IMG/VR virus record: IMGVR_UViG_3300004481_001312
Location: 5,324-69,323 of that record
DNA: 64,000 bases
From: a virus
Taxonomy: Duplodnaviria > Caudoviricetes
Direction: 5' to 3' (one strand)
Positions within the stretch are counted from its first letter, which is position 1. Each line of letters starts with the position of its first letter. Shown here one piece after another: positions 39,029 through 50,857 of this stretch. Made by a program: the position numbers and the translations under genes. Under the pieces are notes generated by a model. That model had not been told where the DNA came from. It ran no database searches and saw only the letters and a list, made by a program, of their open reading frames with translations.

Positions 39029-39709
39029 CTAGTGACGATCAGACCGCGTGTCACGGACCGGTTCGGAGGTAAGGCCAGGAAGGTTGGCCTGGGCGAACTG
39101 GGATCGTGGAACAGGGATTAAACGCTTGGATCCGTTGCTCCAGGCGGGGACGTAAGTTCCCGCCAAACCGCATCGCGCGAGGATATCGGCATCGCGCTGC
39201 CCGTAGGCGGCCAAGACGCTCGGGGCGCCGGCGTTGTCGTGGTACGGGGTTCCGTCGGCGGTGAGGAACCGGACGCGGCCGTGCAGGAAGAGCAGGGATG
39301 ACGCCCGCTGCCACACCTGGTTGACGAACCACGATGTCTCGGTGCGAGCGAACACGAGCGCGGTGCCTTCGCCGTGGTCGGCGAGTTTGGTGATCCACCG
39401 CACGGCTTCCCTGCTGTACGGGGGATTGAGCCATATCCGGCCGTGCCAGGTGGCGGACAGGCCATTGTCGGGACGAGTGATGTGCCGGGCCGCCGTGGGA
39501 CGTAGGCGGGGCAACGGCGCGGCGCACGGGTCCAGGTCGAAGTCGCCGAGCGCGTCGAGGATCCACGGTGGCGTGAGCCAGGTGTCCGACAGCATGCACG
39601 ATGACTGATGGCCACCTATCGCTTTCTTCTTAGTCATCCCAAGGCCCCGGTCGAATTCGGGAAACATTCGTGGTTGTCGTGGTTGGCTGAATGGCGTTAT
39701 GTCGTCCAC
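39029..39709 (-). CDS. Phage DNA N6-adenine methyltransferase (Dam-like)
   Basis: WLTPP, FDLDPCAA, DNGL..W.G.IWLNPPY, ARTET.WF. Confidence 0.9.
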   Translation of the reverse strand: MDDITPFSQPRQPRMFPEFDRGLGMTKKKAIGGHQSSCMLSDTWLTPPWILDALGDFDLDPCAAPLPRLRPTAARHITRPDNGLSATWHGRIWLNPPYSREAVRWITKLADHGEGTALVFARTETSWFVNQVWQRASSLLFLHGRVRFLTADGTPYHDNAGAPSVLAAYGQRDADILARCGLAGTYVPAWSNGSKRLIPVPRSQFAQANLPGLTSEPVRDTRSDRH

Positions 39710-43675: not shown

Positions 43676-44920
43676 GTGAACCTAGACATCACCACCATCA
43701 GCAACATGTGGGGGGAGTATGGGCACTACGCGATCGTCGCGGCCCTCGGAATCTCCCTCGCCCTCCTCATCGCCACAATCCGACGCGTCACAGGACGCAA
43801 GACCACCACCAAAGACCGTGACGTACTCAGCAACGCCGTTACCCTCATGGTCCTAGCCCTCACGGCCGAGGGAATGTTCTGGGTCCTCACAACCAAGTTG
43901 TCCATGCCCCTTCCCTGGTGGCTCGCAATATTCGTGTGCGCCGTGGCCGAAGGATTGATGGTCAACTTCTTTAGGCTCGCCAAGGACTTCCAAGACCGCC
44001 ACGGCCGGCCCGGACCGTTCGGTACCGCGTTCTGGATCGTCGCCATCGCCGAAGGCGCGATAGTCGCCCTCGCCTCCAACAACATCGTCGAAATCGCCCT
44101 GCGCATACTCCTCCCCCTCGGCGTGGCACTCCTCCACTGGATAAAACTCACAGCCGAGAACAGCGAGGAGAACCGGGGTCAGTTCCTGTGGACCCCCCTC
44201 AACCTCATGATCCGACTCGGCGCGTGGAAGCCCGGGAAAACCACCATCACCGAGGCCGAGGCCAAGAGGTTCGAGGAAAAACTGACGAACGCCGCGTACA
44301 TGCTCGCATCAGCGCGGTGCTTCAAGAATCGCAAACGTCGCAGGGTCCGGAAGATGATGCTCAAGGCCGACCCAACAACCGCAGCATCCGTGATCGCGCA
44401 CCTCGAACTCGCCTACGGCATTGAGGCACGCATCGCGGCCGTCACGAAAACCGGTACAGAGGCAGTCAAGGCCGCCAGCGGAACCCAGACCCCGGCTATA
44501 GATACCACCGCAGGCGTGGATGCACTCCCAGTGGCCACCAACGGCCACCGGGACAACGGCAATCCCGTCCTCGACATCCAGGCAACCCCGGTCAACGGCC
44601 ACCGGCACAATGGCAACCAGCCCGCACTCGCCAGCACACCAGCGCGCAGGACTATGACAGCCCTCGCCATGACCACGGCCGAACGCGACGCTGATATCGT
44701 TATCCGCCACTGGGACGCACTGACCGGCCTTATACAGGCCGGCACCCTGTGCCGATCCGCGATCGAACGCGCGTGCACCGTCGGAGACGACAAGGTGCTC
44801 GCCCGGCAGGCGAAGCGTGTCCTGGACATTATGACCTGCGCGAATACCCTCGACTCTGGCATGTCGATCGAGGAACGGGTTGCCATGGCAATCAAGATGA
44901 TTGCCAACGGACAGAGGTGA
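43676..44920 (+). CDS. Spd/DUF2637-like multi-pass membrane protein (plasmid-spreading type)
   Basis: About five N-terminal TM segments, a WTP..L..RLGA motif and a low-complexity C-terminal region. Confidence 0.55.
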   Translation: MNLDITTISNMWGEYGHYAIVAALGISLALLIATIRRVTGRKTTTKDRDVLSNAVTLMVLALTAEGMFWVLTTKLSMPLPWWLAIFVCAVAEGLMVNFFRLAKDFQDRHGRPGPFGTAFWIVAIAEGAIVALASNNIVEIALRILLPLGVALLHWIKLTAENSEENRGQFLWTPLNLMIRLGAWKPGKTTITEAEAKRFEEKLTNAAYMLASARCFKNRKRRRVRKMMLKADPTTAASVIAHLELAYGIEARIAAVTKTGTEAVKAASGTQTPAIDTTAGVDALPVATNGHRDNGNPVLDIQATPVNGHRHNGNQPALASTPARRTMTALAMTTAERDADIVIRHWDALTGLIQAGTLCRSAIERACTVGDDKVLARQAKRVLDIMTCANTLDSGMSIEERVAMAIKMIANGQR

Positions 44921-44928
44921 CCACCACC

Positions 44929-45068
44929 ACCACGGCCCCCGGTATACCGCCGGGGGTCGTGTTGTATGTCTGGTCTGGAGGATCACCCAGAAGGATGACC
45001 GGTATGGCTTGGATAGCCCTAACGCGTCATGTAGACTATGGGCATGACGCAGAACACGAACACCACCG
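44929..45068 (+). repeat. 140-bp terminator-promoter-gene-start module, copy 2
   Basis: See 30801-30940. Confidence 0.92.
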
Positions 45069-45571
45069 CACGGACCGTCGCCAACCTCACCGCATCGATC
45101 CGACGGACAACCGGAGTCGTCCGCGACAACCACGCACGCGAACTCATCAACCACGTTGGAATCGACCTGGTGTCAATGCTCGTCGGGGCGTCCGACCGAT
45201 ACCACTCCGCCGAGCGCGCCCTGGACGAGGCCGAGGCGACAATGATCAACGCCATGGACGCGATCCACCGGATGATCGACCCCGACCCGGTCCGTAACAC
45301 CAGGTACCTCGTCGAAGCTATCGCGACGACGGCGCGCTGCTACGTGTCGGCCCTAGACGATGGCACCGAGGACGACCGGGCGCGTGCCCGGGAGTTGTTC
45401 ATCGAGGCGACCGGTGACGTCGCCGGAATGATGACGACGACGGAGGGGCGTGCCGAGGTTCCGATCCTGGCCTTCGCCGCTATGTCATCCGCCATGGCGG
45501 AGAGGACCGAACAGGCGACCAAGGACGCGTACCGCGCGATCCAAACCGTGATCAATAACAAGTTCAACTGA
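45044..45571 (+). CDS. Hypothetical helical protein (MTQNTNTT start)
   Basis: TTGGAT-17-TAGACT lies 6 nt before the ATG; hairpin follows the stop. Confidence 0.7.
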   Translation: MTQNTNTTARTVANLTASIRRTTGVVRDNHARELINHVGIDLVSMLVGASDRYHSAERALDEAEATMINAMDAIHRMIDPDPVRNTRYLVEAIATTARCYVSALDDGTEDDRARARELFIEATGDVAGMMTTTEGRAEVPILAFAAMSSAMAERTEQATKDAYRAIQTVINNKFN

Positions 45572-45586
45572 CAACAACCACGACGA

Positions 45587-45613
45587 CGGCCCCCGGCATA
45601 CCGCCGGGGGCCG
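45587..45613 (+). repeat. Dispersed hairpin family copy (inverted)
   Basis: CGGCCCCCGG-CATACCG-CCGGGGGCCG. Confidence 0.8.
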
Positions 45614-45646
45614 ATCCATTGGGTTGTGAGGTACGCCATACCAACC

Positions 45647-46422
45647 CGTACGGCCCGTACGCCCCCCGTACAACCGGTGGGCATACGCGTGTCTGTATCC
45701 CGTACGCCTCCGTACGGCACGCCCCGTACGCCTAAATCCGATCATGGTTATGGGCAGTTTCCCGTACGGCGCGATCCCGACCGTACGGCCAGTACTGGGA
45801 CCGGCGTGCTGACGTACGGGGACCGGCGTACGGCCGTACGGGCCACAAGGGGGCGTACGTGGTGGTTGGTGTACGGAGTCGTACGGGTATTGGTGTACGT
45901 GGTCGTACGGGATCGTGGCGTACGGTCAGACCGCCGTACGGCCTCCCCGTCCGTACGGACGTACGGCCCGTACGCTGGCCGGTTTCCATACGCTGGTTCC
46001 GTACGGCCTCCCCGTACGCCGATCCCTATATGCCGTGACGCTGGGCCGTACTCCGTACGGTGCCTTGTTGGCGTACGGGTTGTACGGGGACGCAGGGTTG
46101 TACGGCTCGTACGGCGTACCCACCGGTCGGCCCCGTACGGACTGGGCATCGACCGGAGGAGTTCTGGCGTGGTCGTACGGTGTGCGGGCGTGCGTGCCGT
46201 ACGCGGGTCTGTGTACCGGATCCGTACGGCCGGATTCGTACGGGGCGTCAGTCGTACGCGTACGGGCGTACGGGGCGTCAGTCGTACGCGTACGGGCGTA
46301 CGGGGCGTCAGTCGTACGCGTACGGGGTGGTTTGCGTACAGGAGCCGCACGAAGTCGTACGGGTCGAGTCCGTGCGGTCGGGGACGTAGGGGCGTACGTA
46401 CGGCGTGCCCGTACGGCGTACG
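45647..46422. repeat. Dense array of the palindrome CGTACG, including a 3x30-bp tandem repeat
   Basis: About 41 perfect CGTACG by hand count in 776 bp; tandem unit CGTACGGGGCGTCAGTCGTACGCGTACGGG at 46237-46326. Confidence 0.95.
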
Positions 46423-46449: not shown

Positions 46450-46478
46450 TTGGCTATTTCCTGGCATGCCGGTATACT
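46450..46478 (+). promoter_or_regulatory. SigA-type promoter of the tra-like operon
   Basis: TTGGCT-17-TATACT. Confidence 0.65.
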
Positions 46479-46504: not shown

Positions 46505-46804
46505 ATGACAGAACACCCGAACAACAAGACCCCACTCGACATCAACGAGTTGATCACCGTTCGGACCCCAATGGGCGCACAAATCACCCTATACCGAAAT
46601 TCTCAGTCGTACCGGGTCACTGCTACCGACTGCTATACCCGACGACTCCGCGAACCAGCGACGTTCGTCACCGAGCAGCCCGCCCGTGACCAGGCCCGAG
46701 TCTGGACCCTCGAACTGCTCCGCGACCACACGACGTTCGAGGTCGAAACCATACGCAACGGAACCACCAACCGATACACCGTCGACATGGAGGCAAGAAA
46801 GTGA
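46505..46804 (+). CDS. Hypothetical protein
   Basis: GGGGGAG RBS; GTGA overlap with the next gene. Confidence 0.65.
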   Translation: MTEHPNNKTPLDINELITVRTPMGAQITLYRNSQSYRVTATDCYTRRLREPATFVTEQPARDQARVWTLELLRDHTTFEVETIRNGTTNRYTVDMEARK

Positions 46805-47013
46805 CCTCGTCCGTACTCGCCGCGCTACTCGCCATCGCAGCCGGCCTCTACATTTTTTTCTCGTCTAACCGCCTTTCAACCGCCGCGATGGTCATCGCAT
46901 TCATCACACTCGGTTATCTCTCCGGGAACACCGGAACCACGTTCGGCGGTTGGGTCGCCGGAATCGTTTCCGGCGTGACCATGCTCATTGACTGGGTGGC
47001 ATCACTATTCTAA
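46801..47013 (+). CDS. Small membrane protein (Spd-like)
   Basis: 70 aa, almost entirely hydrophobic, in the tra-like operon. Confidence 0.6.
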   Translation: MTSSVLAALLAIAAGLYIFFSSNRLSTAAMVIAFITLGYLSGNTGTTFGGWVAGIVSGVTMLIDWVASLF

Positions 47014-47039: not shown

Positions 47040-47162
47040 TGTCAGGGTGTCAGGGTGTCAGGGTTTACAGTCACCCAGACACCCTCCGGACAGCCGCGAA
47101 ATCCCTGGTAAACGGTCTTTCTCAAACGGCCAGTGCACCCTGACACCACTCACCCCAGACAC
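47040..47162. repeat. Cluster of TGTCAGGG / CACCC(T/A)GACAC repeats
   Basis: TGTCAGGG x3 in tandem at 47040-47063; opposite-orientation variants near 47072, 47136 and 47152. Confidence 0.8.
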
Positions 47163-47182: not shown

Positions 47183-48586
47183 ATGACTACGTCAACACCA
47201 CCACCGACCCCTACCGCGCCAACATCAACCCAACCGGCCCCACCACCGGCCCAACAAGCACCGACAACCCAAACCGAAACCCTCAAACCAACTACACAAC
47301 GTCGCCGTCCAAAGATCAACCGCGAGACAGCGATCGTGATAGCCCTGGTCGTAGCCACGGCCGAGCTCGCCCTAGTCGCGGCCATCGGATCCTGGGCACG
47401 GTGGCTCATCATCCATGCCGCAATCGCCGTGATCGCCCTGATCGTGTTCCTCGCCAAGTTCGGACGGAACCGCAGACGCGCCACCGGCAATGGCACTGGC
47501 GGAGGCCGGGGACGTGGACTCGCAGGACTCCTCGGCGGACACGGCCGGGGCAACGTCCGGGGCAACGGCAACGGCACTGGCGGAGGCCGGGGACGTGGAC
47601 TCGCAGGACTCCTCGGCGGACACGGCACCGGAGCTGGCGGAGGCCGGGGACGTGGACTCGCAGGACTCCTCGGCGGACACGGCCGGGGCAACGTCCGGGG
47701 CAACGGCAACGGAAATGGCAATGGCACTGGCGGAGGCCGGGGACGTGGACTCGCAGGACTCCTCGGCGGACACGGCCGGGGCAACGTCCGGGGCAACGGC
47801 AACGGCACCGGGACCAACTGGGGAAGTCGTGGCAACGGACTCGGAGGACTCTTCGGAGGCACCGGAGGCGGACACGGAACCGGAGCTGGCGGACACGGAA
47901 CTGGACGTGGCACCGGAGCTGGCGGACACGGAACTGGACGTGGCACCGGAAGACACGGAGGAGGCCTCGACCTGTTAGGCCACGGTGGCGACAAGGACAG
48001 TCACGGCCTCCTCGCCAGCACCTTAGGCGAAATCAAGAAGGGCTGGAACGCAGCCGCCACTAAAGACAAGGAGGATCCCGACACCGAATCCGAACCCGAC
48101 GACATCGAACCCGAACCCGACAACACCGAAGAAGAACCGGCCGGCCAGGAAACGCCAGACACACCGGCCACATCACAAGGGGAATCAACCAAGATGGTCA
48201 AGACACAAGGAACTCCGAGCCTCCAAGCGTGGGGACGATGCCTCCCATCCGTCGAACAAGCCCTGCTGGAAAAGCAGCGCGAACTCCGGCGCGTCGAGGC
48301 AGACCTGGAAAACATCGCCGAGGCAGTATCACGCCTCCATAACCAGGGCGAGCAAGAACTGCCGGCCTCGCCGAAACTAGTCGCCCTCCTAGCCGACGTC
48401 CAGGCGTCCCTGAACAGACTTCCACTGGTGTCCGAAGTCATCGGAAAAATCGCTAGCAACGCGAACGCGCTCGCACCGCTTTACCGCACCGAACACACCG
48501 GAGACGAGGACCGACTTGCCGGTATGCGTGGTGGTGTCGAGCGGGAAAAGCGCTCCGACGTCGGAGAAGCACAAAAAGACACCTGA
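47183..48586 (+). CDS. TraA-like protein: two TM segments, Gly/Arg-rich repeats, helical C-terminal domain
   Basis: GGGRGRGLAGLLGGHG x4; C-terminal H..DE.RL...RGG..EKRSDV; directly upstream of traB. Confidence 0.55.
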   Translation: MTTSTPPPTPTAPTSTQPAPPPAQQAPTTQTETLKPTTQRRRPKINRETAIVIALVVATAELALVAAIGSWARWLIIHAAIAVIALIVFLAKFGRNRRRATGNGTGGGRGRGLAGLLGGHGRGNVRGNGNGTGGGRGRGLAGLLGGHGTGAGGGRGRGLAGLLGGHGRGNVRGNGNGNGNGTGGGRGRGLAGLLGGHGRGNVRGNGNGTGTNWGSRGNGLGGLFGGTGGGHGTGAGGHGTGRGTGAGGHGTGRGTGRHGGGLDLLGHGGDKDSHGLLASTLGEIKKGWNAAATKDKEDPDTESEPDDIEPEPDNTEEEPAGQETPDTPATSQGESTKMVKTQGTPSLQAWGRCLPSVEQALLEKQRELRRVEADLENIAEAVSRLHNQGEQELPASPKLVALLADVQASLNRLPLVSEVIGKIASNANALAPLYRTEHTGDEDRLAGMRGGVEREKRSDVGEAQKDT

Positions 48587-48613: not shown

Positions 48614-50857
48614 GTGAAACACCCCACCACAAAAACAACCAGCCACGTCCCGTCCTACGCGTTGATCGGCCTCCTCGGGCCGGTCGTAACGGCACTCGCC
48701 TGCCAGACCATCCCGGGTATTCCGGCCGCAGTACCAACAGCGGCCGGCGTGCTCCTCGCCATCGTCACCTACGCGGCCCGGAACACCCGGTCGACAACGG
48801 CGACCAGGGCCGCCCTCACGGCCCTGTTCGTCGCGGCCGGCTCGATCTGGGCTAGCGTCGCGGCTACGGCCGGGATCACTCCCCTCGGGTGCGTGGTCCT
48901 CGCCGTTGGCGTAACCATCGGAACAATGGTCATGCTCGCCATACCAATTCCACTCACCAAGGAGGAACTCGAAGCGATCGCTGCGGCCGAGGCAGCGGCA
49001 CTCGCGGAGGCCGAGGCTGCGGCTGCGGCTGCCGACCCCAACTATGGGCTTCCAGCTGGCCGGACCAGGCAGGAAGAGACCATGCAGGCCCTACTCCGCC
49101 GTTTGTCCAATACCAACATCTCAGTCGTAAAAATCGAATCGTGGGAGACCCCGGACGACGGCATGGACATCCGGGTGTCCCTAGTTGAGGGAATGGAACC
49201 AAAGGACCTCGTAAACCTATGCGGAAAGATCCAATCAACTCCGCAACTCCGACTTCCGCAGGGATGTGTAGTAACTGTCCTCGACGGGGACTACCAATGC
49301 GAGGCCGTTATACGGGTCATGCTCCGTGACTGCCTCAAGGACCACATCATTTTGGATGAGTACGAGTCGGCAACCCCAGCCTCGATCAATGACCCGTTCC
49401 CACTGATGCGCTCCCCACAGGGCAACTGGTTCACGGTCTGCCTCCGCATCTTCTGCATGATCGTCGGTGGAACCACGGGTAGCGGTAAAACCACCCTCCT
49501 CAACCGGATCATCGCCTATTTGGCGAGATGCACCGACGCGCTAATCTGGGTAGTCGATTTCAACGGCGGCGGACTCGGCGCGCCGTGGAACCGACCTTTC
49601 GAGGAGGGAAAAACCACCAAGCCGATCATCGACTGGTTGGGCGACACCGAAGAGGAATCAGCCGTGATCATGGCATGCGCGAAGGGTATCGCGAAGGGCC
49701 GCAAAACCGACCGCGAATCAGTTCAAATGCGCCGTGACGCAGGCACTAACGTCCTTCCCCTAAGCCCCAAAAAGCCTGCCATCGTCGTCCTCACAGACGA
49801 GGGCGGGGAGGTACGCCAGGCCGCCAACGTCCTCGGCCAGATCGTCTGCTCGCAAATCTCTAGCCTCGCCCAGATTGGTAGGGAAACCGGAGTTCGCGTA
49901 ATAATGTCCGTACTACGCGGTACCGCAGACCTATTGGACAAGGCACTTCGCACCGTGTGTTCCATCCGGGTGTGCCTCCGCATGGACGAGGAAGGCGAGT
50001 ACGACCACGTCCTAGGCCGCAACCCGGGACGTGTACGCCTCATGCACACCGGTTCCGCATGGATCTACCGGACAACACAGGACTACCGGCCAGTCGTCGG
50101 CCGGTCGGTCGATGTTCCCCCCGCGTTCGTCGAACAGCACGCTATCGACTGCGCGAACCTACGACCAGACCTCGACAAGGCCGGTCAGGCCATATGCGCC
50201 AACATCAAACTTACAGACGTGTTCGCCGGACGCGACCCGGGGAACTACGAGGAGTTGTTGGACCACCCGGCGCTCGTCGATGTCACCACCGGAACCGCCT
50301 ACACCAGGCGGCACCAGCGGCGCGCCGAACGCCTCTCCGCGATAGAACGTGGCGAGGACCCCGACAGTCAGGCCGGCCGTCGTACGGCGACCACGGACGT
50401 CCCAACCGCACCACGCGCCAGTTCCGCCACAGCGAGTCTTCTTAACCAGGTCGACAAATTGGGAACTGGTAGGAAATCGGCCCCTGCGGCACGCGCCACA
50501 GCGCCAACAACGACACCGTCCGAAACCGATGTGTTCAATGCGCTGACCAGCGGAAAGCACCTAATGCTCGAAGGGCACTGCCCGATAGACACTACCAACA
50601 CCACTTTCCCGGCATCGGCCCCGACGACCGGGGAGACCATCCCCGACGCGCCAACCACGACGCTCCGCGAGCGCCTCAACCTGATGCTGACCGACATCTA
50701 CCCAAATGGCCTCAAGGCCGGGGAGATCGAGGCGACCCTGAAGGCCGAGGTGTTCCGGTACTCCAGGGGAAATCTGTTCGAGGTGCTGAAGGCCATGGTC
50801 GGGAAGCACGGCGAGTTGGACAAGGTAGACGACCGGTACTACCGGACGCTCGTCTGA
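48614..50857 (+). CDS. traB: TraB-like FtsK/SpoIIIE conjugative DNA translocase
   Basis: N-terminal TM segments, Walker A GGTTGSGKT, Walker B IVVLTDE, LAQIGRETGV, C-terminal winged-helix-like domain. Confidence 0.85.
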   Translation: MKHPTTKTTSHVPSYALIGLLGPVVTALACQTIPGIPAAVPTAAGVLLAIVTYAARNTRSTTATRAALTALFVAAGSIWASVAATAGITPLGCVVLAVGVTIGTMVMLAIPIPLTKEELEAIAAAEAAALAEAEAAAAAADPNYGLPAGRTRQEETMQALLRRLSNTNISVVKIESWETPDDGMDIRVSLVEGMEPKDLVNLCGKIQSTPQLRLPQGCVVTVLDGDYQCEAVIRVMLRDCLKDHIILDEYESATPASINDPFPLMRSPQGNWFTVCLRIFCMIVGGTTGSGKTTLLNRIIAYLARCTDALIWVVDFNGGGLGAPWNRPFEEGKTTKPIIDWLGDTEEESAVIMACAKGIAKGRKTDRESVQMRRDAGTNVLPLSPKKPAIVVLTDEGGEVRQAANVLGQIVCSQISSLAQIGRETGVRVIMSVLRGTADLLDKALRTVCSIRVCLRMDEEGEYDHVLGRNPGRVRLMHTGSAWIYRTTQDYRPVVGRSVDVPPAFVEQHAIDCANLRPDLDKAGQAICANIKLTDVFAGRDPGNYEELLDHPALVDVTTGTAYTRRHQRRAERLSAIERGEDPDSQAGRRTATTDVPTAPRASSATASLLNQVDKLGTGRKSAPAARATAPTTTPSETDVFNALTSGKHLMLEGHCPIDTTNTTFPASAPTTGETIPDAPTTTLRERLNLMLTDIYPNGLKAGEIEATLKAEVFRYSRGNLFEVLKAMVGKHGELDKVDDRYYRTLV

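What the first reader, a model, noticed from the sequence alone, without database searches (positions are those of the whole stretch)
45647..46422. About 41 copies of the palindrome CGTACG in 776 bp, directly upstream of the tra promoter
Seen: about 41 perfect hexamers (random expectation about 0.3 at this GC, so over 100-fold enriched) plus many GTAC near-matches, irregularly spaced, with one 3x30-bp tandem unit. The motif falls in all three codon phases of every overlapping ORF (RT, PY, VR), so selection appears to be on the DNA, not a protein. It sits between a terminator and a strong promoter. Inference, in order of preference: a protein-loading array for transfer or partition (clt/centromere-like); a decoy for host CGTACG/GTAC restriction or methylation enzymes; a titration sink for the regulator of the TACGT-rich promoters at 19.5-22.4 kb. 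Known clt sites use non-palindromic 8-bp repeats, so this would be a different kind of site.
Basis: partly seen in the sequence, partly recalled or inferred. Interest (0 to 1): 0.85.

Follow-up and report, generated by a model that had tools for sequence, protein, structure and literature searches.

The report
Docking-site array for a phage SpdB-like protein
A 776-bp non-coding stretch of an actinomycete phage holds 41 copies of the DNA word CGTACG, most likely landing sites for the DNA-binding tail of the membrane "spread" protein encoded just upstream, which would hold the phage DNA at a plasmid-type DNA-transfer machine.

Summary
There are 41 exact CGTACG in 45647-46422, against 29 in the other 68.5 kb, about 125-fold denser. 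The real word is CGTACGG/CCGTACGG.

The array is non-coding. Two related phages keep it at the same place, with 48 and 41 copies. Motif columns are 70% conserved and spacers about 40%.

The same word clusters in actinomycete TraB-type conjugation modules. There, 8-30 copies lie inside the 3' half of a SpdB/DUF2637-like membrane-protein gene, in mixed codon phases (RT, xVR, PYG). It occurs wherever that protein ends in a small three-helix, GntR-like HTH domain with helix RSWCEK. The window's upstream gene p414 carries this domain. Paralogues without the domain have 0-4 copies.

Subfamilies whose helix reads RRWCE[Y/G/A] lack CGTACG and carry CCGCAC(G) instead, so protein and site co-vary.

TraB recognition helices are not conserved among CGTACG-bearing elements. 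A separate GACACC-type repeat cluster at 47041-47147 is a better TraB clt candidate.

Best reading: a detached, expanded docking array for the Spd-like protein's own C-terminal domain. It would tether element DNA to the Spd/TraB apparatus. No binding has been shown.

This scan flagged the same word arrays on other DNA before (e1-5849729, e1-5891207).

The parts
43676..44920 (+). p414, an SpdB-like membrane protein. It has an N-terminal TM domain, a linker and a C-terminal helical domain. It is the proposed reader of the array.
   Evidence: The N-terminal ~200 aa are homologous to the array-bearing proteins of L020 and L056 (BLASTP 1e-6 and 1e-4). Alignment A2 shows the shared C-terminal motif with invariant W346, L352, S361, E364, V369 and A376. 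Atlas neighbours include DUF2637 / SpdB_N / HTH_SpdB_C clusters at scores 0.85-0.91, which are leads only.
44615..44836 (+). C-terminal HTH-like domain of p414. The window form has the helix ...CRSAIERA...; the common form is ...RRSWCEKAVRDA...
   Evidence: Alignments A4 and A5. The family has 174 representatives at E<=1e-3 among 1.84 billion proteins. The AF2 model of the common form has three helices with pLDDT >90. The window form gives five helices with pLDDT 77. The nearest structures are GntR/AraR/KorA-type HTH domains, none of them significant.
44931..44961 (+). Terminator-like hairpin after p414.
   Evidence: 13-pair stem, 10 GC pairs.
45038..45571 (+). p177, a gene inserted between p414 and the array in this phage only.
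   Evidence: tblastn finds no match in L005 or L006, where the array follows the p414 homologue. Its only family hit is a weak TetR_C match.
45587..45612 (+). GC-rich hairpin (GGCCCCCGG..CCGGGGGCC) at the left edge of the array.
   Evidence: Read directly from the sequence. The scan did not flag it because it lacks a T tail.
45631..46422 (.). Non-coding array of 41 CGTACG(G) plus 11 further GTAC cores. Spacing is irregular, 4-45 bp with a median of 16.
   Evidence: It is conserved at the same position in L005 (48 copies) and L006 (41 copies). Motif columns are 70% identical in all three phages against 39-41% for spacers, and most indels are not multiples of 3.
46237..46326 (+). Three perfect 30-bp tandem units, each holding three CGTACG. 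This marks recent local expansion.
   Evidence: family D5.
46450..46478 (+). Promoter-like TTGGCT-17-TATACT of the downstream p99-p70-p467-TraB operon, 28 bp from the last site.
   Evidence: The right flank is 70% identical in all three phages.
46505..47013 (+). p99 (46505-46804) and the small membrane protein p70 (46801-47013), the first genes of the downstream operon. Their function is unknown.
   Evidence: conserved in L005 and L006. No Pfam, PHROG or NCBIfam hit.
47041..47147 (.). Separate cluster of 7-8-bp repeats: GTCAGGGT x3 (which contains GGTGTCA x2), then xGACACC words on the + strand (one exact TGACACC at 47141). It is a candidate TraB-type clt.
   Evidence: It is conserved in L005 and L006. 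The word matches the DC1 repeat TGACACC of the pWTY27 clt, which is bound by that plasmid's TraB homologue (PMC3583192, read). This is a resemblance only.
48614..50857 (+). TraB/FtsK-like translocase with TM segments, a P-loop and a C-terminal wHTH.
   Evidence: phrog_31069 at 3.4e-45. C-terminal wHTH alignment.

Best explanation
The block is a cis-acting docking array for a DNA-binding protein of the phage's plasmid-type DNA-transfer (Spd/TraB) module. The most likely reader is the C-terminal three-helix, GntR-like HTH domain of the SpdB-like membrane protein p414, encoded just upstream. In related actinomycete conjugative plasmids and integrated elements, the same word is written 8-30 times into the linker-coding part of that protein's own gene. 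In this phage lineage the sites have left the reading frame and expanded to 41-48 copies as a free-standing 0.78-kb block. The proposed mechanism is as follows. The protein is a membrane-anchored oligomer whose DNA-binding heads sit on long flexible linkers. Many heads bind many irregularly spaced sites at once. This avidity tethers the element's DNA to the membrane translocation complex, which would serve spread through the mycelium, transfer or segregation. Shown here are the DNA-level selection, the linkage of the word to the domain, and the co-variation of the word with the recognition helix. Inferred are direct binding, the tethering, and its biological outcome.
For: (1) The array is real and conserved as a set of words, not as a sequence. 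There are 41, 48 and 41 copies in three phages whose TraB proteins are 82-85% identical. Motif columns are 70% conserved against about 40% for spacers, and only 21 sites align in all three.

(2) It is non-coding. Indels are mostly not multiples of 3, and site phases and spacings show no mod-3 bias.

(3) Every locus encoding the RSWCEK-type domain has a CGTACG cluster. Eight loci found by protein similarity alone carry 8-18 copies per 800 bp. These include plasmid pSROS01, with 17 in the last 450 bp of its 'DUF2637' gene. In contrast, 37 loci with paralogues or matches that lack the domain carry 0-4, against a background of 0.57 per kb.

(4) Within those genes the word sits in mixed phases. It encodes 112 of 159 RT dipeptides, although CGT is a rare Arg codon there; the paralogues use it for 6 of 35 RT.

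(5) Protein and site co-vary. Helices RSWCEK, RSFLEK and RSAIER go with CGTACG. Helices RRWCE[Y/G/A] go with 0-1 CGTACG in the gene and enrichment of CCGCAC(G): 32 in a 1.5-kb gene against 8 in 4 kb of flank in L266, and 25 against 8 in L267. A Ser-to-Arg change paired with a T:A-to-C:G change is stereochemically sensible.

(6) The domain folds confidently as helix / short helix / turn / long helix. Its nearest structural neighbours are GntR/AraR/KorA/StbA DNA-binding domains.

(7) Precedent exists. SpdA2 of pIJ101 binds palindromes lying inside its own gene (PMC4170104). SpdB2 binds dsDNA, forms oligomers and has homologues in actinophages (PMC4447253).
Against: No binding experiment exists. 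The structural matches are below significance (Foldseek E about 1; VIA Z <= 6.6). The window-type domain gave no clear match and shares only about 20% identity with the common type. No HTH family in the local Pfam matches it. The co-variation may rest on one or a few evolutionary events, and every gene of the module would co-vary in the same way. The 137-kb phage G402 has a 24-copy non-coding array but no detectable RSWCEK domain. A 6-8-bp site is short for specific recognition. Published work found SpdB2 binding to DNA to be non-specific (PMC4447253).
Confidence: 0.55

Rival explanations
1. [quoted passage not shown]
For: The format resembles known clt loci: short 7-9-bp words, irregular spacing, a bias in orientation, and a position next to the tra genes. 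A TraB-like gene lies within 2-4 kb of the Spd-like gene in 4 of 6 chromosomal loci examined, and in the window, L021, L024 and pSROS01. The variant word CCGCAC resembles the nine CCGCACA[C/G][C/G] repeats of the pJV1 clt, as summarised in PMC3583192.
Against: In pSVH1, helix alpha-3 of the TraB wHTH sets the specificity (PMC3583192, citing Vogelmann 2011). That helix is not conserved among six TraB lineages that all accompany CGTACG arrays: SRGNLFEVL, SRAESLGGL, SDAQTVRFL, RSRSAVANWL, TATTDLAAL and GRSTAHRYL. In G402 the array is 67 kb from the FtsK-like gene. The array tracks the spd gene, not traB. The window has a separate conserved GACACC-type 8-bp repeat cluster inside the tra operon, which resembles the TraB-bound pWTY27 clt. 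Known clt loci have 3-9 repeats in 50-200 bp, not 41-48 in 780 bp.
Confidence: 0.2
2. The array is an operator or silencing field. A repressor, either the Spd-like domain itself or another phage or host regulator, coats it and switches the adjacent tra-operon promoter, as omega protein does on heptad arrays or KorA/KorB do on plasmids.
For: The last site ends 28 bp upstream of the -35 hexamer of a strongly conserved promoter. Unregulated traB expression is toxic and is always repressed in plasmids (PMC4447253).
Against: In plasmids and integrated elements the sites lie in the 3' half of a gene, away from promoters. In G402 the array lies between two convergent gene ends. Forty-one sites over 780 bp is far more than an operator needs. 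No GntR-type TraR was found next to the array in the window.
Confidence: 0.12
3. The array is a target or decoy for a host system that recognises CGTACG or GTAC, such as a restriction enzyme, a methyltransferase or a nucleoid protein. It would sense methylation state or soak up the enzyme.
For: CGTACG is a known type II recognition sequence (my own knowledge: BsiWI/SplI). The phage encodes a Dam-family N6-adenine methyltransferase at 39029-39709.
Against: The word is not depleted in the rest of the genome: 29 copies outside the array, against about 30 expected from dinucleotide-preserving shuffles of the whole window. The arrays also occur in integrated chromosomal elements and in a resident plasmid, which are not exposed to restriction. 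The word switches to a non-palindromic CCGCAC along with an element-encoded protein helix.
Confidence: 0.05
4. The block is a decayed or unrecognised coding region, for example a former RT-rich linker of a second spd gene, with no present function.
For: Open frames of 284, 247 and 177 codons span it. In relatives the same word array is coding.
Against: CGTACG contains no stop codon in any frame, so open frames arise by construction. The three phages differ by indels of non-triplet length. The words are conserved twice as well as the spacers, copy number is held at 41-48, and a recent perfect 3 x 30-bp expansion is present.
Confidence: 0.03

Closest known systems
SpdA2 / sps of Streptomyces lividans plasmid pIJ101 (Thoma et al. 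2014, PMC4170104)
   Same: A short palindromic DNA word is repeated inside the coding region of a spread-module gene and is bound by that gene's own product. In both cases the sites were noticed because they force a recurring peptide (SRDD/E there, RT/VR/PYG here). Removing the sites by synonymous recoding is the established test.
   Different: The protein is unrelated: SpdA2 is a small soluble protein with a conserved N-terminus. Its site is a 12-bp palindrome present in 2-3 copies, not a 6-8-bp word in 8-48 copies. In the window the sites lie outside any gene.
clt loci of Streptomyces plasmids, bound by TraB (pSVH1 TRS 8-mers; pJV1 nine CCGCACA[C/G][C/G]; pWTY27 four TGACACC; PMC4447253, PMC3583192)
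   Same: Both are clusters of short, irregularly spaced words on an element carrying a TraB-type translocase. They are thought to load a membrane DNA-transfer protein. The variant word CCGCAC is nearly the pJV1 clt repeat.
   Different: The array is five to ten times larger. Its main word is palindromic. It is linked to the spd gene rather than to traB. TraB recognition helices are not conserved among elements that share the word. The window has another, more clt-like repeat cluster at 47041-47147.
SpdB2 of pSVH1 (Tiffert et al. 2007, as summarised in PMC4447253)
   Same: [quoted passage not shown] It binds dsDNA, interacts with TraB, and has reported homologues in actinophages.
   Different: SpdB2 was reported to bind DNA non-specifically, and no site array is described for it. 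Homology between p414 and pSVH1 SpdB2 itself was not tested here because no sequence was held.
parS sites inside parB/spo0J genes, and type Ib centromeres made of many short repeats (pB171 parC, pSM19035 omega heptads); from my own knowledge
   Same: Cis sites are kept genetically linked to the gene of their binding protein. Many short repeats are bound cooperatively to build a large nucleoprotein handle.
   Different: No ParA or ParB partner lies next to the array. Spacing is irregular rather than contiguous.

Membership tests
clt (TraB-recognised cis-acting locus of transfer) | Cluster of short (5-9 bp) repeats on a replicon that encodes a TraB/FtsK-like translocase | tested here: met
   There are 41 CGTACG(G) copies with an orientation bias. 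TraB-like gene at 48614-50857.
clt (TraB-recognised cis-acting locus of transfer) | Repeats are recognised by helix alpha-3 of the TraB C-terminal wHTH, so word and helix should go together | tested here: not met
   This is an indirect test. Six TraB lineages that accompany the same word have unrelated recognition helices. Direct binding cannot be tested with these tools.
clt (TraB-recognised cis-acting locus of transfer) | Required in cis for conjugative transfer | not testable with these tools
   This needs mating assays.
sps-type site (palindrome inside the gene of its own binding protein, SpdA2) | Palindromic word repeated within the coding region of the binder's gene | tested here: inconclusive
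   This is met in relatives (L020, L021, L024, L056, L181, L198, L233-L239, pSROS01). It is not met in the window, where the sites lie downstream of p414, 727 bp past its stop codon.
sps-type site (palindrome inside the gene of its own binding protein, SpdA2) | Binder is an SpdA homologue and the site is the conserved 12-bp sps palindrome | tested here: not met
   The word is CGTACG(G), not the 12-bp sps that encodes SRDD/E. The candidate binder is the tail of a membrane protein and is not SpdA-like.
SpdB / DUF2637 spread proteins (Pfam PF10935; Pfam 38.1 SpdB_N PF27080, HTH_SpdB_C PF27079) | Match to the family profile | tested here: inconclusive
   PF10935 matches the L024 homologue at 6.8e-11, and pSROS01's protein is annotated DUF2637. 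p414 itself gives no hit. PF27079 and PF27080 are not in the local library; Atlas neighbours carry them at scores of 0.85-0.87, which is a lead only.
Partition centromere (ParB/parS or type Ib repeats) | Adjacent parA/parB-type genes whose product binds the repeats | tested here: not met
   None of the ORFs scanned between 39029 and 54124 matched a ParA or ParB family in Pfam, PHROGs or NCBIfam.
Restriction/methylation target cluster | The word is otherwise avoided, or modified, in the genome | tested here: not met
   There are 29 copies outside the array against about 30 expected. Methylation cannot be tested here.

The most novel reading that the evidence does not exclude
A tailed phage of mycelial actinomycetes carries a complete plasmid-type spread system: an SpdB-like tether, a 41-site docking array and a TraB pump with its own clt. 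It uses this system to move its double-stranded genome from compartment to compartment, or between hyphae, without making virions. The SpdB-like tail reads DNA by a simple code in which Ser at helix position 2 goes with CGTACG and Arg goes with CGCACG.
Probability: 0.2. Interest if true: 0.9.

Novelty: new variant of a known kind. Interest (0 to 1): 0.72.

Why it matters
How Spd proteins handle DNA during intramycelial spreading of Streptomyces plasmids is an open question. SpdB2 is known only as a pore-forming membrane protein that binds DNA non-specifically.

A sequence-specific site array tied to an SpdB-like C-terminal domain gives the field three things. It provides a concrete cis element, a candidate reader, and a simple experiment: oligo binding, a Ser/Arg swap, and synonymous recoding of the sites. 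The apparent one-residue, one-base co-variation makes the experiment sharp.

The phage form, with 41-48 sites outside any gene, separates the DNA signal from protein coding. It also suggests that some phages use plasmid transfer machinery for their own DNA.

The word arrays could further serve as a marker for finding such modules in genomes.

Tried and rejected
- BLAST of the region against phage and plasmid collections found nothing.
- L007, a 44%-identical TraB relative, has no array and no RSWCEK domain.
- The pattern scan of genome contigs mostly returned unrelated one-phase PYG/DPYA coding repeats of Streptomyces proteins. I set these aside as false positives.
- The whole-family alignment A2 was too divergent for the search for related loci.
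- Fold searches gave no significant match to any solved structure. The window-type domain gave Foldseek E >= 0.7 and VIA Z <= 5.6, matching generic helical bundles. The common type gave Foldseek E about 1 and VIA Z <= 6.6.
- A Pfam scan of 46 domain sequences at E <= 10 gave no HTH family.
- hhalign between the domain profile and the C-terminus of the G402 TM protein found nothing.
- An hmmsearch of all G402 frames found no domain.
- There is no helical phasing of sites; only a weak ~8-bp signal appears.
- The TACGT-promoter link was rejected, because those regions hold a different word at modest counts.
- Vogelmann 2011 and Servin-Gonzalez 1996 are not held, and pJV1 is not in the plasmid collection. 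The location of the pJV1 clt relative to its spd genes therefore could not be checked.
- tblastn of the RRWCEY-type domain against plasmids found no match.

Full report
**The observation**

The window holds 70 exact CGTACG, and 41 of them lie between 45647 and 46422. The whole 69,323-bp record holds no more. That gives 52.8 per kb in the block against 0.42 per kb elsewhere.

Dinucleotide-preserving shuffles of the window give 30 +/- 5 copies. The 29 copies outside the block are therefore just what composition predicts, and only the block is exceptional.

Aligning all 52 GTAC cores shows that the word is wider and slightly asymmetric. C precedes the core in 45 of 52 and G follows it in 46 of 52. 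A further G follows in 36 of 52, and a further C precedes in 21 of 52. Scored as CGTACGG against CCGTACG, the 41 sites are 18 forward, 6 reverse, 12 both and 5 neither. The two related phages show the same forward bias.

Spacing is irregular, 4-45 bp with a median of 16, and without helical phasing. A perfect 3 x 30-bp tandem lies at 46237-46326.

**The replicon**

The record is an IMG/VR viral contig, estimated 87% complete. It carries:

- a portal, a MuF-like protein, a large terminase and a tape-measure protein;
- an endolysin;
- a 747-aa TraB/FtsK-like protein (phrog_31069, 3.4e-45).

The array lies after a + strand gene block made of GGDEF, p414 and p177. It lies before a conserved promoter-like site, TTGGCT-17-TATACT at 46450-46478. 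That promoter leads p99, a small membrane protein, a Gly-rich 467-aa protein and the TraB-like gene.

**Conservation of the array**

Two IMG/VR phages have TraB proteins 85% and 82% identical to the window's. They carry 48 and 41 CGTACG at the same position.

In the three-way alignment, columns inside the window's motifs are identical in all three phages in 70% of cases. Spacer columns are identical in 39-41%. Only 21 sites are aligned in all three, so sites turn over while the total number is held. Thirteen to fifteen of the sixteen gaps per sequence are not multiples of three. The block is therefore non-coding DNA whose words are under selection.

p177 is absent from both relatives. The ancestral arrangement is thus p414, then the array, then the promoter.

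**The same word elsewhere**

A pattern scan of IMG/VR for three close CGTACGG found further dense arrays in high-GC actinomycete contigs. In L020, L021, L024 and L056 the 19-29 copies lie inside the 3' half of a long gene. Most are read as CGT-ACG = Arg-Thr, and some as xVR or PYG.

These proteins share a membrane N-terminus, a long RT-rich linker and a conserved C-terminal motif, W-x-PDY-x-x-L-x-x-RTG-x-x-RSWCEK-x-VR-x-A. The membrane N-terminus is of two kinds: L024's matches DUF2637 at 6.8e-11, while L020 and L056 are homologous to the N-terminus of p414.

p414 carries the same C-terminal domain in a divergent form (...HWDALTGLIQAGTLCRSAIERA...), with six invariant positions (alignment A2). 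Its own linker holds no CGTACG. In the phage lineage the words have therefore moved out of the gene.

**A test less dependent on the word**

I searched 401 genomes of the family of L181's genome with the protein profile.

- **Commonest homologues.** These share only the N-terminal part and end in a different domain. Their loci hold 0-4 CGTACG per 800 bp (37 loci, background 0.57 per kb).
- **Loci with the RSWCEK domain.** These are L198, L233-L235 and L237-L239. I also include plasmid pSROS01 of Streptosporangium roseum, found by tblastn. They hold 8-18 copies, in mixed phases. The separation from the first group is complete.

In the domain-bearing genes, 112 of 159 RT dipeptides are spelled CGTACG. 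In the paralogues the figure is 6 of 35, and CGT makes up only 7% of Arg codons there.

Many hits from the genome-wide pattern scan were unrelated one-phase PYG/DPYA repeats. I discarded them.

TraB-like genes lie 2-4 kb away in four of six chromosomal loci. pSROS01 has GntR, BldC-family, SsgA and FtsK genes around the DUF2637 gene. These loci are therefore TraB-type conjugation modules.

**The domain**

A profile search of 1.84 billion representatives finds only 174 proteins at E <= 1e-3. In full-length members the domain sits near the C-terminus.

With a 46-sequence alignment, AlphaFold2 gives the common type three helices (3-19, 28-35, 39-54) at pLDDT above 90, followed by a disordered tail. 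The Foldseek top list is not significant (E about 1). It is nevertheless dominated by HTH DNA-binding domains: AraR and other GntR-family domains, KorA, StbA and ArdK. The Atlas's own model of a family member aligns best to GntR-family domains, with TM by query of 0.5-0.68.

VIA-align gives Z <= 6.6, which is inconclusive. The window-type model is less confident at pLDDT 77 and has no clear match. The local Pfam has no matching family. Pfam 38.1 does contain 'HTH_SpdB_C' and 'SpdB_N', which appear among Atlas neighbours of p414 at lead-level scores. DNA binding by this domain is thus plausible but not shown.

**Co-variation of protein and word**

Aligning 150 family members shows variants of the third helix. 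I fetched the DNA of seven variant genes.

| Third helix | Example locus | CGTACG | CCGCAC (both strands), gene vs flank |
|---|---|---|---|
| RSFLEK | L268 | 17 in the gene | not counted |
| RRWCEG | L266 | 0 in the gene | 32 in the 1.5-kb gene vs 8 in 4 kb of flank |
| RRWCEA | L267 | 0 in the gene | 25 vs 8 |
| RRWCEY | L269 | 0 in the gene | 18 vs 5 |
| RRWCEY | L263-L265 | 0-1 in the gene | weaker enrichment |

In the RRWCE-type genes the enriched words are CCGCAC, CGCACG and CCCGCA, again in mixed phases (RT as CGC-ACG; PHE/PHG).

So Ser at helix position 2 goes with T at word position 3, and Arg goes with C, which puts a G on the other strand. This is what a direct reader would show. 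It also argues against a universal host factor. The caveat is phylogenetic: the change may have happened only once or twice, and other genes of the module would track it as well.

**The TraB alternative**

Known clt loci are clusters of short repeats bound by TraB through helix alpha-3 of its wHTH (PMC4447253, PMC3583192). The variant word resembles the pJV1 clt repeat. However, the C-terminal wHTH helices of six TraB lineages that all accompany CGTACG arrays have nothing in common.

In the 137-kb phage G402, a 24-copy non-coding array lies between two convergent genes, 67 kb from the FtsK-like gene.

The window has a second, conserved repeat cluster inside the tra operon at 47041-47147. It consists of GTCAGGGT x3, which contains GGTGTCA x2, followed by xGACACC words on the + strand, one of them an exact TGACACC at 47141. 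Its word equals the TGACACC repeat of the pWTY27 clt (PMC3583192). I therefore rate TraB as the less likely reader of CGTACG.

**Other rivals**

- **Restriction or methylation decoy.** This does not fit. The word is not depleted elsewhere, the arrays also occur in resident chromosomal elements and a plasmid, and the word switches with an element-encoded helix.
- **Sink for TACGT promoters.** This has no motif basis.
- **Operator function.** This remains possible in the window, where the array abuts a promoter. It does not fit the intragenic or convergent-gene positions seen elsewhere.

**Exception and limits**

G402 has an array but no detectable RSWCEK domain. A TM protein with an HTH-looking tail lies 2.2 kb away, but it does not match the profile. 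Either its reader is too divergent to detect, or such phages exploit a reader supplied by resident elements. Nothing here demonstrates binding, tethering or any phenotype.

**Comparison with what is known, and novelty**

The closest precedent is SpdA2/sps of pIJ101, where a spread-module protein binds palindromes lying inside its own gene (PMC4170104). The closest functional class is clt.

The features that are different here are:

- the protein is the tail of an SpdB-like membrane protein;
- the word is 6-8 bp and present in 8-48 copies;
- the word and the recognition helix co-vary;
- the phage form is detached and non-coding.

The held literature does not describe this. 'DUF2637' appears in only two unrelated papers.

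This scan had already flagged CGTACG arrays in Spd-like genes and in a tra cluster on other DNA, and one follow-up there reached the same reading. I reached my reading before seeing those notes, and they are not independent evidence.

Noticed in passing
window 47041-47147: A conserved intergenic cluster of 7-8-bp repeats lies between p70 and p467. It consists of GTCAGGGT x3 (containing GGTGTCA x2) followed by xGACACC words on the + strand, one of them an exact TGACACC at 47141. The word equals the DC1 repeat (TGACACC) of the pWTY27 clt, which that plasmid's TraB homologue binds. This makes it a candidate for the true TraB clt of this phage.
   Followed up: partly
window 45038-45571 (with hairpins at 44931-44961 and 45587-45612): Gene p177 is absent from both close relatives, so it is a recent insertion between p414 and the array. 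It is bracketed by two copies of the same GC hairpin.
   Followed up: partly
window 47404-47853 (inside p467, 47183-48586): The 467-aa protein downstream of the array has a TM segment followed by Gly/Arg/Asn-rich repeats encoded by 57/81-bp DNA repeats. Its C-terminal coiled-coil part is conserved in L005 and L006. No family hit was found.
   Followed up: no
G000 record ends (first 120 and last 100 bases; outside or at the edge of the window): Both ends of the contig consist of tandem direct repeats, about 48 bp x2.3 at the start and about 32 bp x3 at the end. These may be assembly breakpoints or true terminal repeats.
   Followed up: no
window 39029-39709 (-): A Dam-family N6-adenine DNA methyltransferase (PF05869, 2.2e-14). 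Its target sequence is unknown.
   Followed up: no
L204-L232 (Streptomycetaceae chromosomes): A highly conserved paralogue of the Spd-like N-terminal domain is found in about 30% of 401 sampled genomes. Its different C-terminal domain reads ...REYWDxQIERKxVPRAADIA...EYRxLWKLE.... It has no CGTACG cluster, and its function is unknown.
   Followed up: partly
L249 8060-8641 (G402, 137-kb phage with terminal repeats): A second, unrelated phage lineage carries a non-coding 24-copy CGTACG array between convergent genes. No RSWCEK-type domain is detectable in it.
   Followed up: partly
L043 5331-5554: Sixteen CGTACG with a strict 10-11-bp period lie at the end of a 40-kb viral contig. This tandem form was not examined further, and the record is not held.
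   Followed up: no
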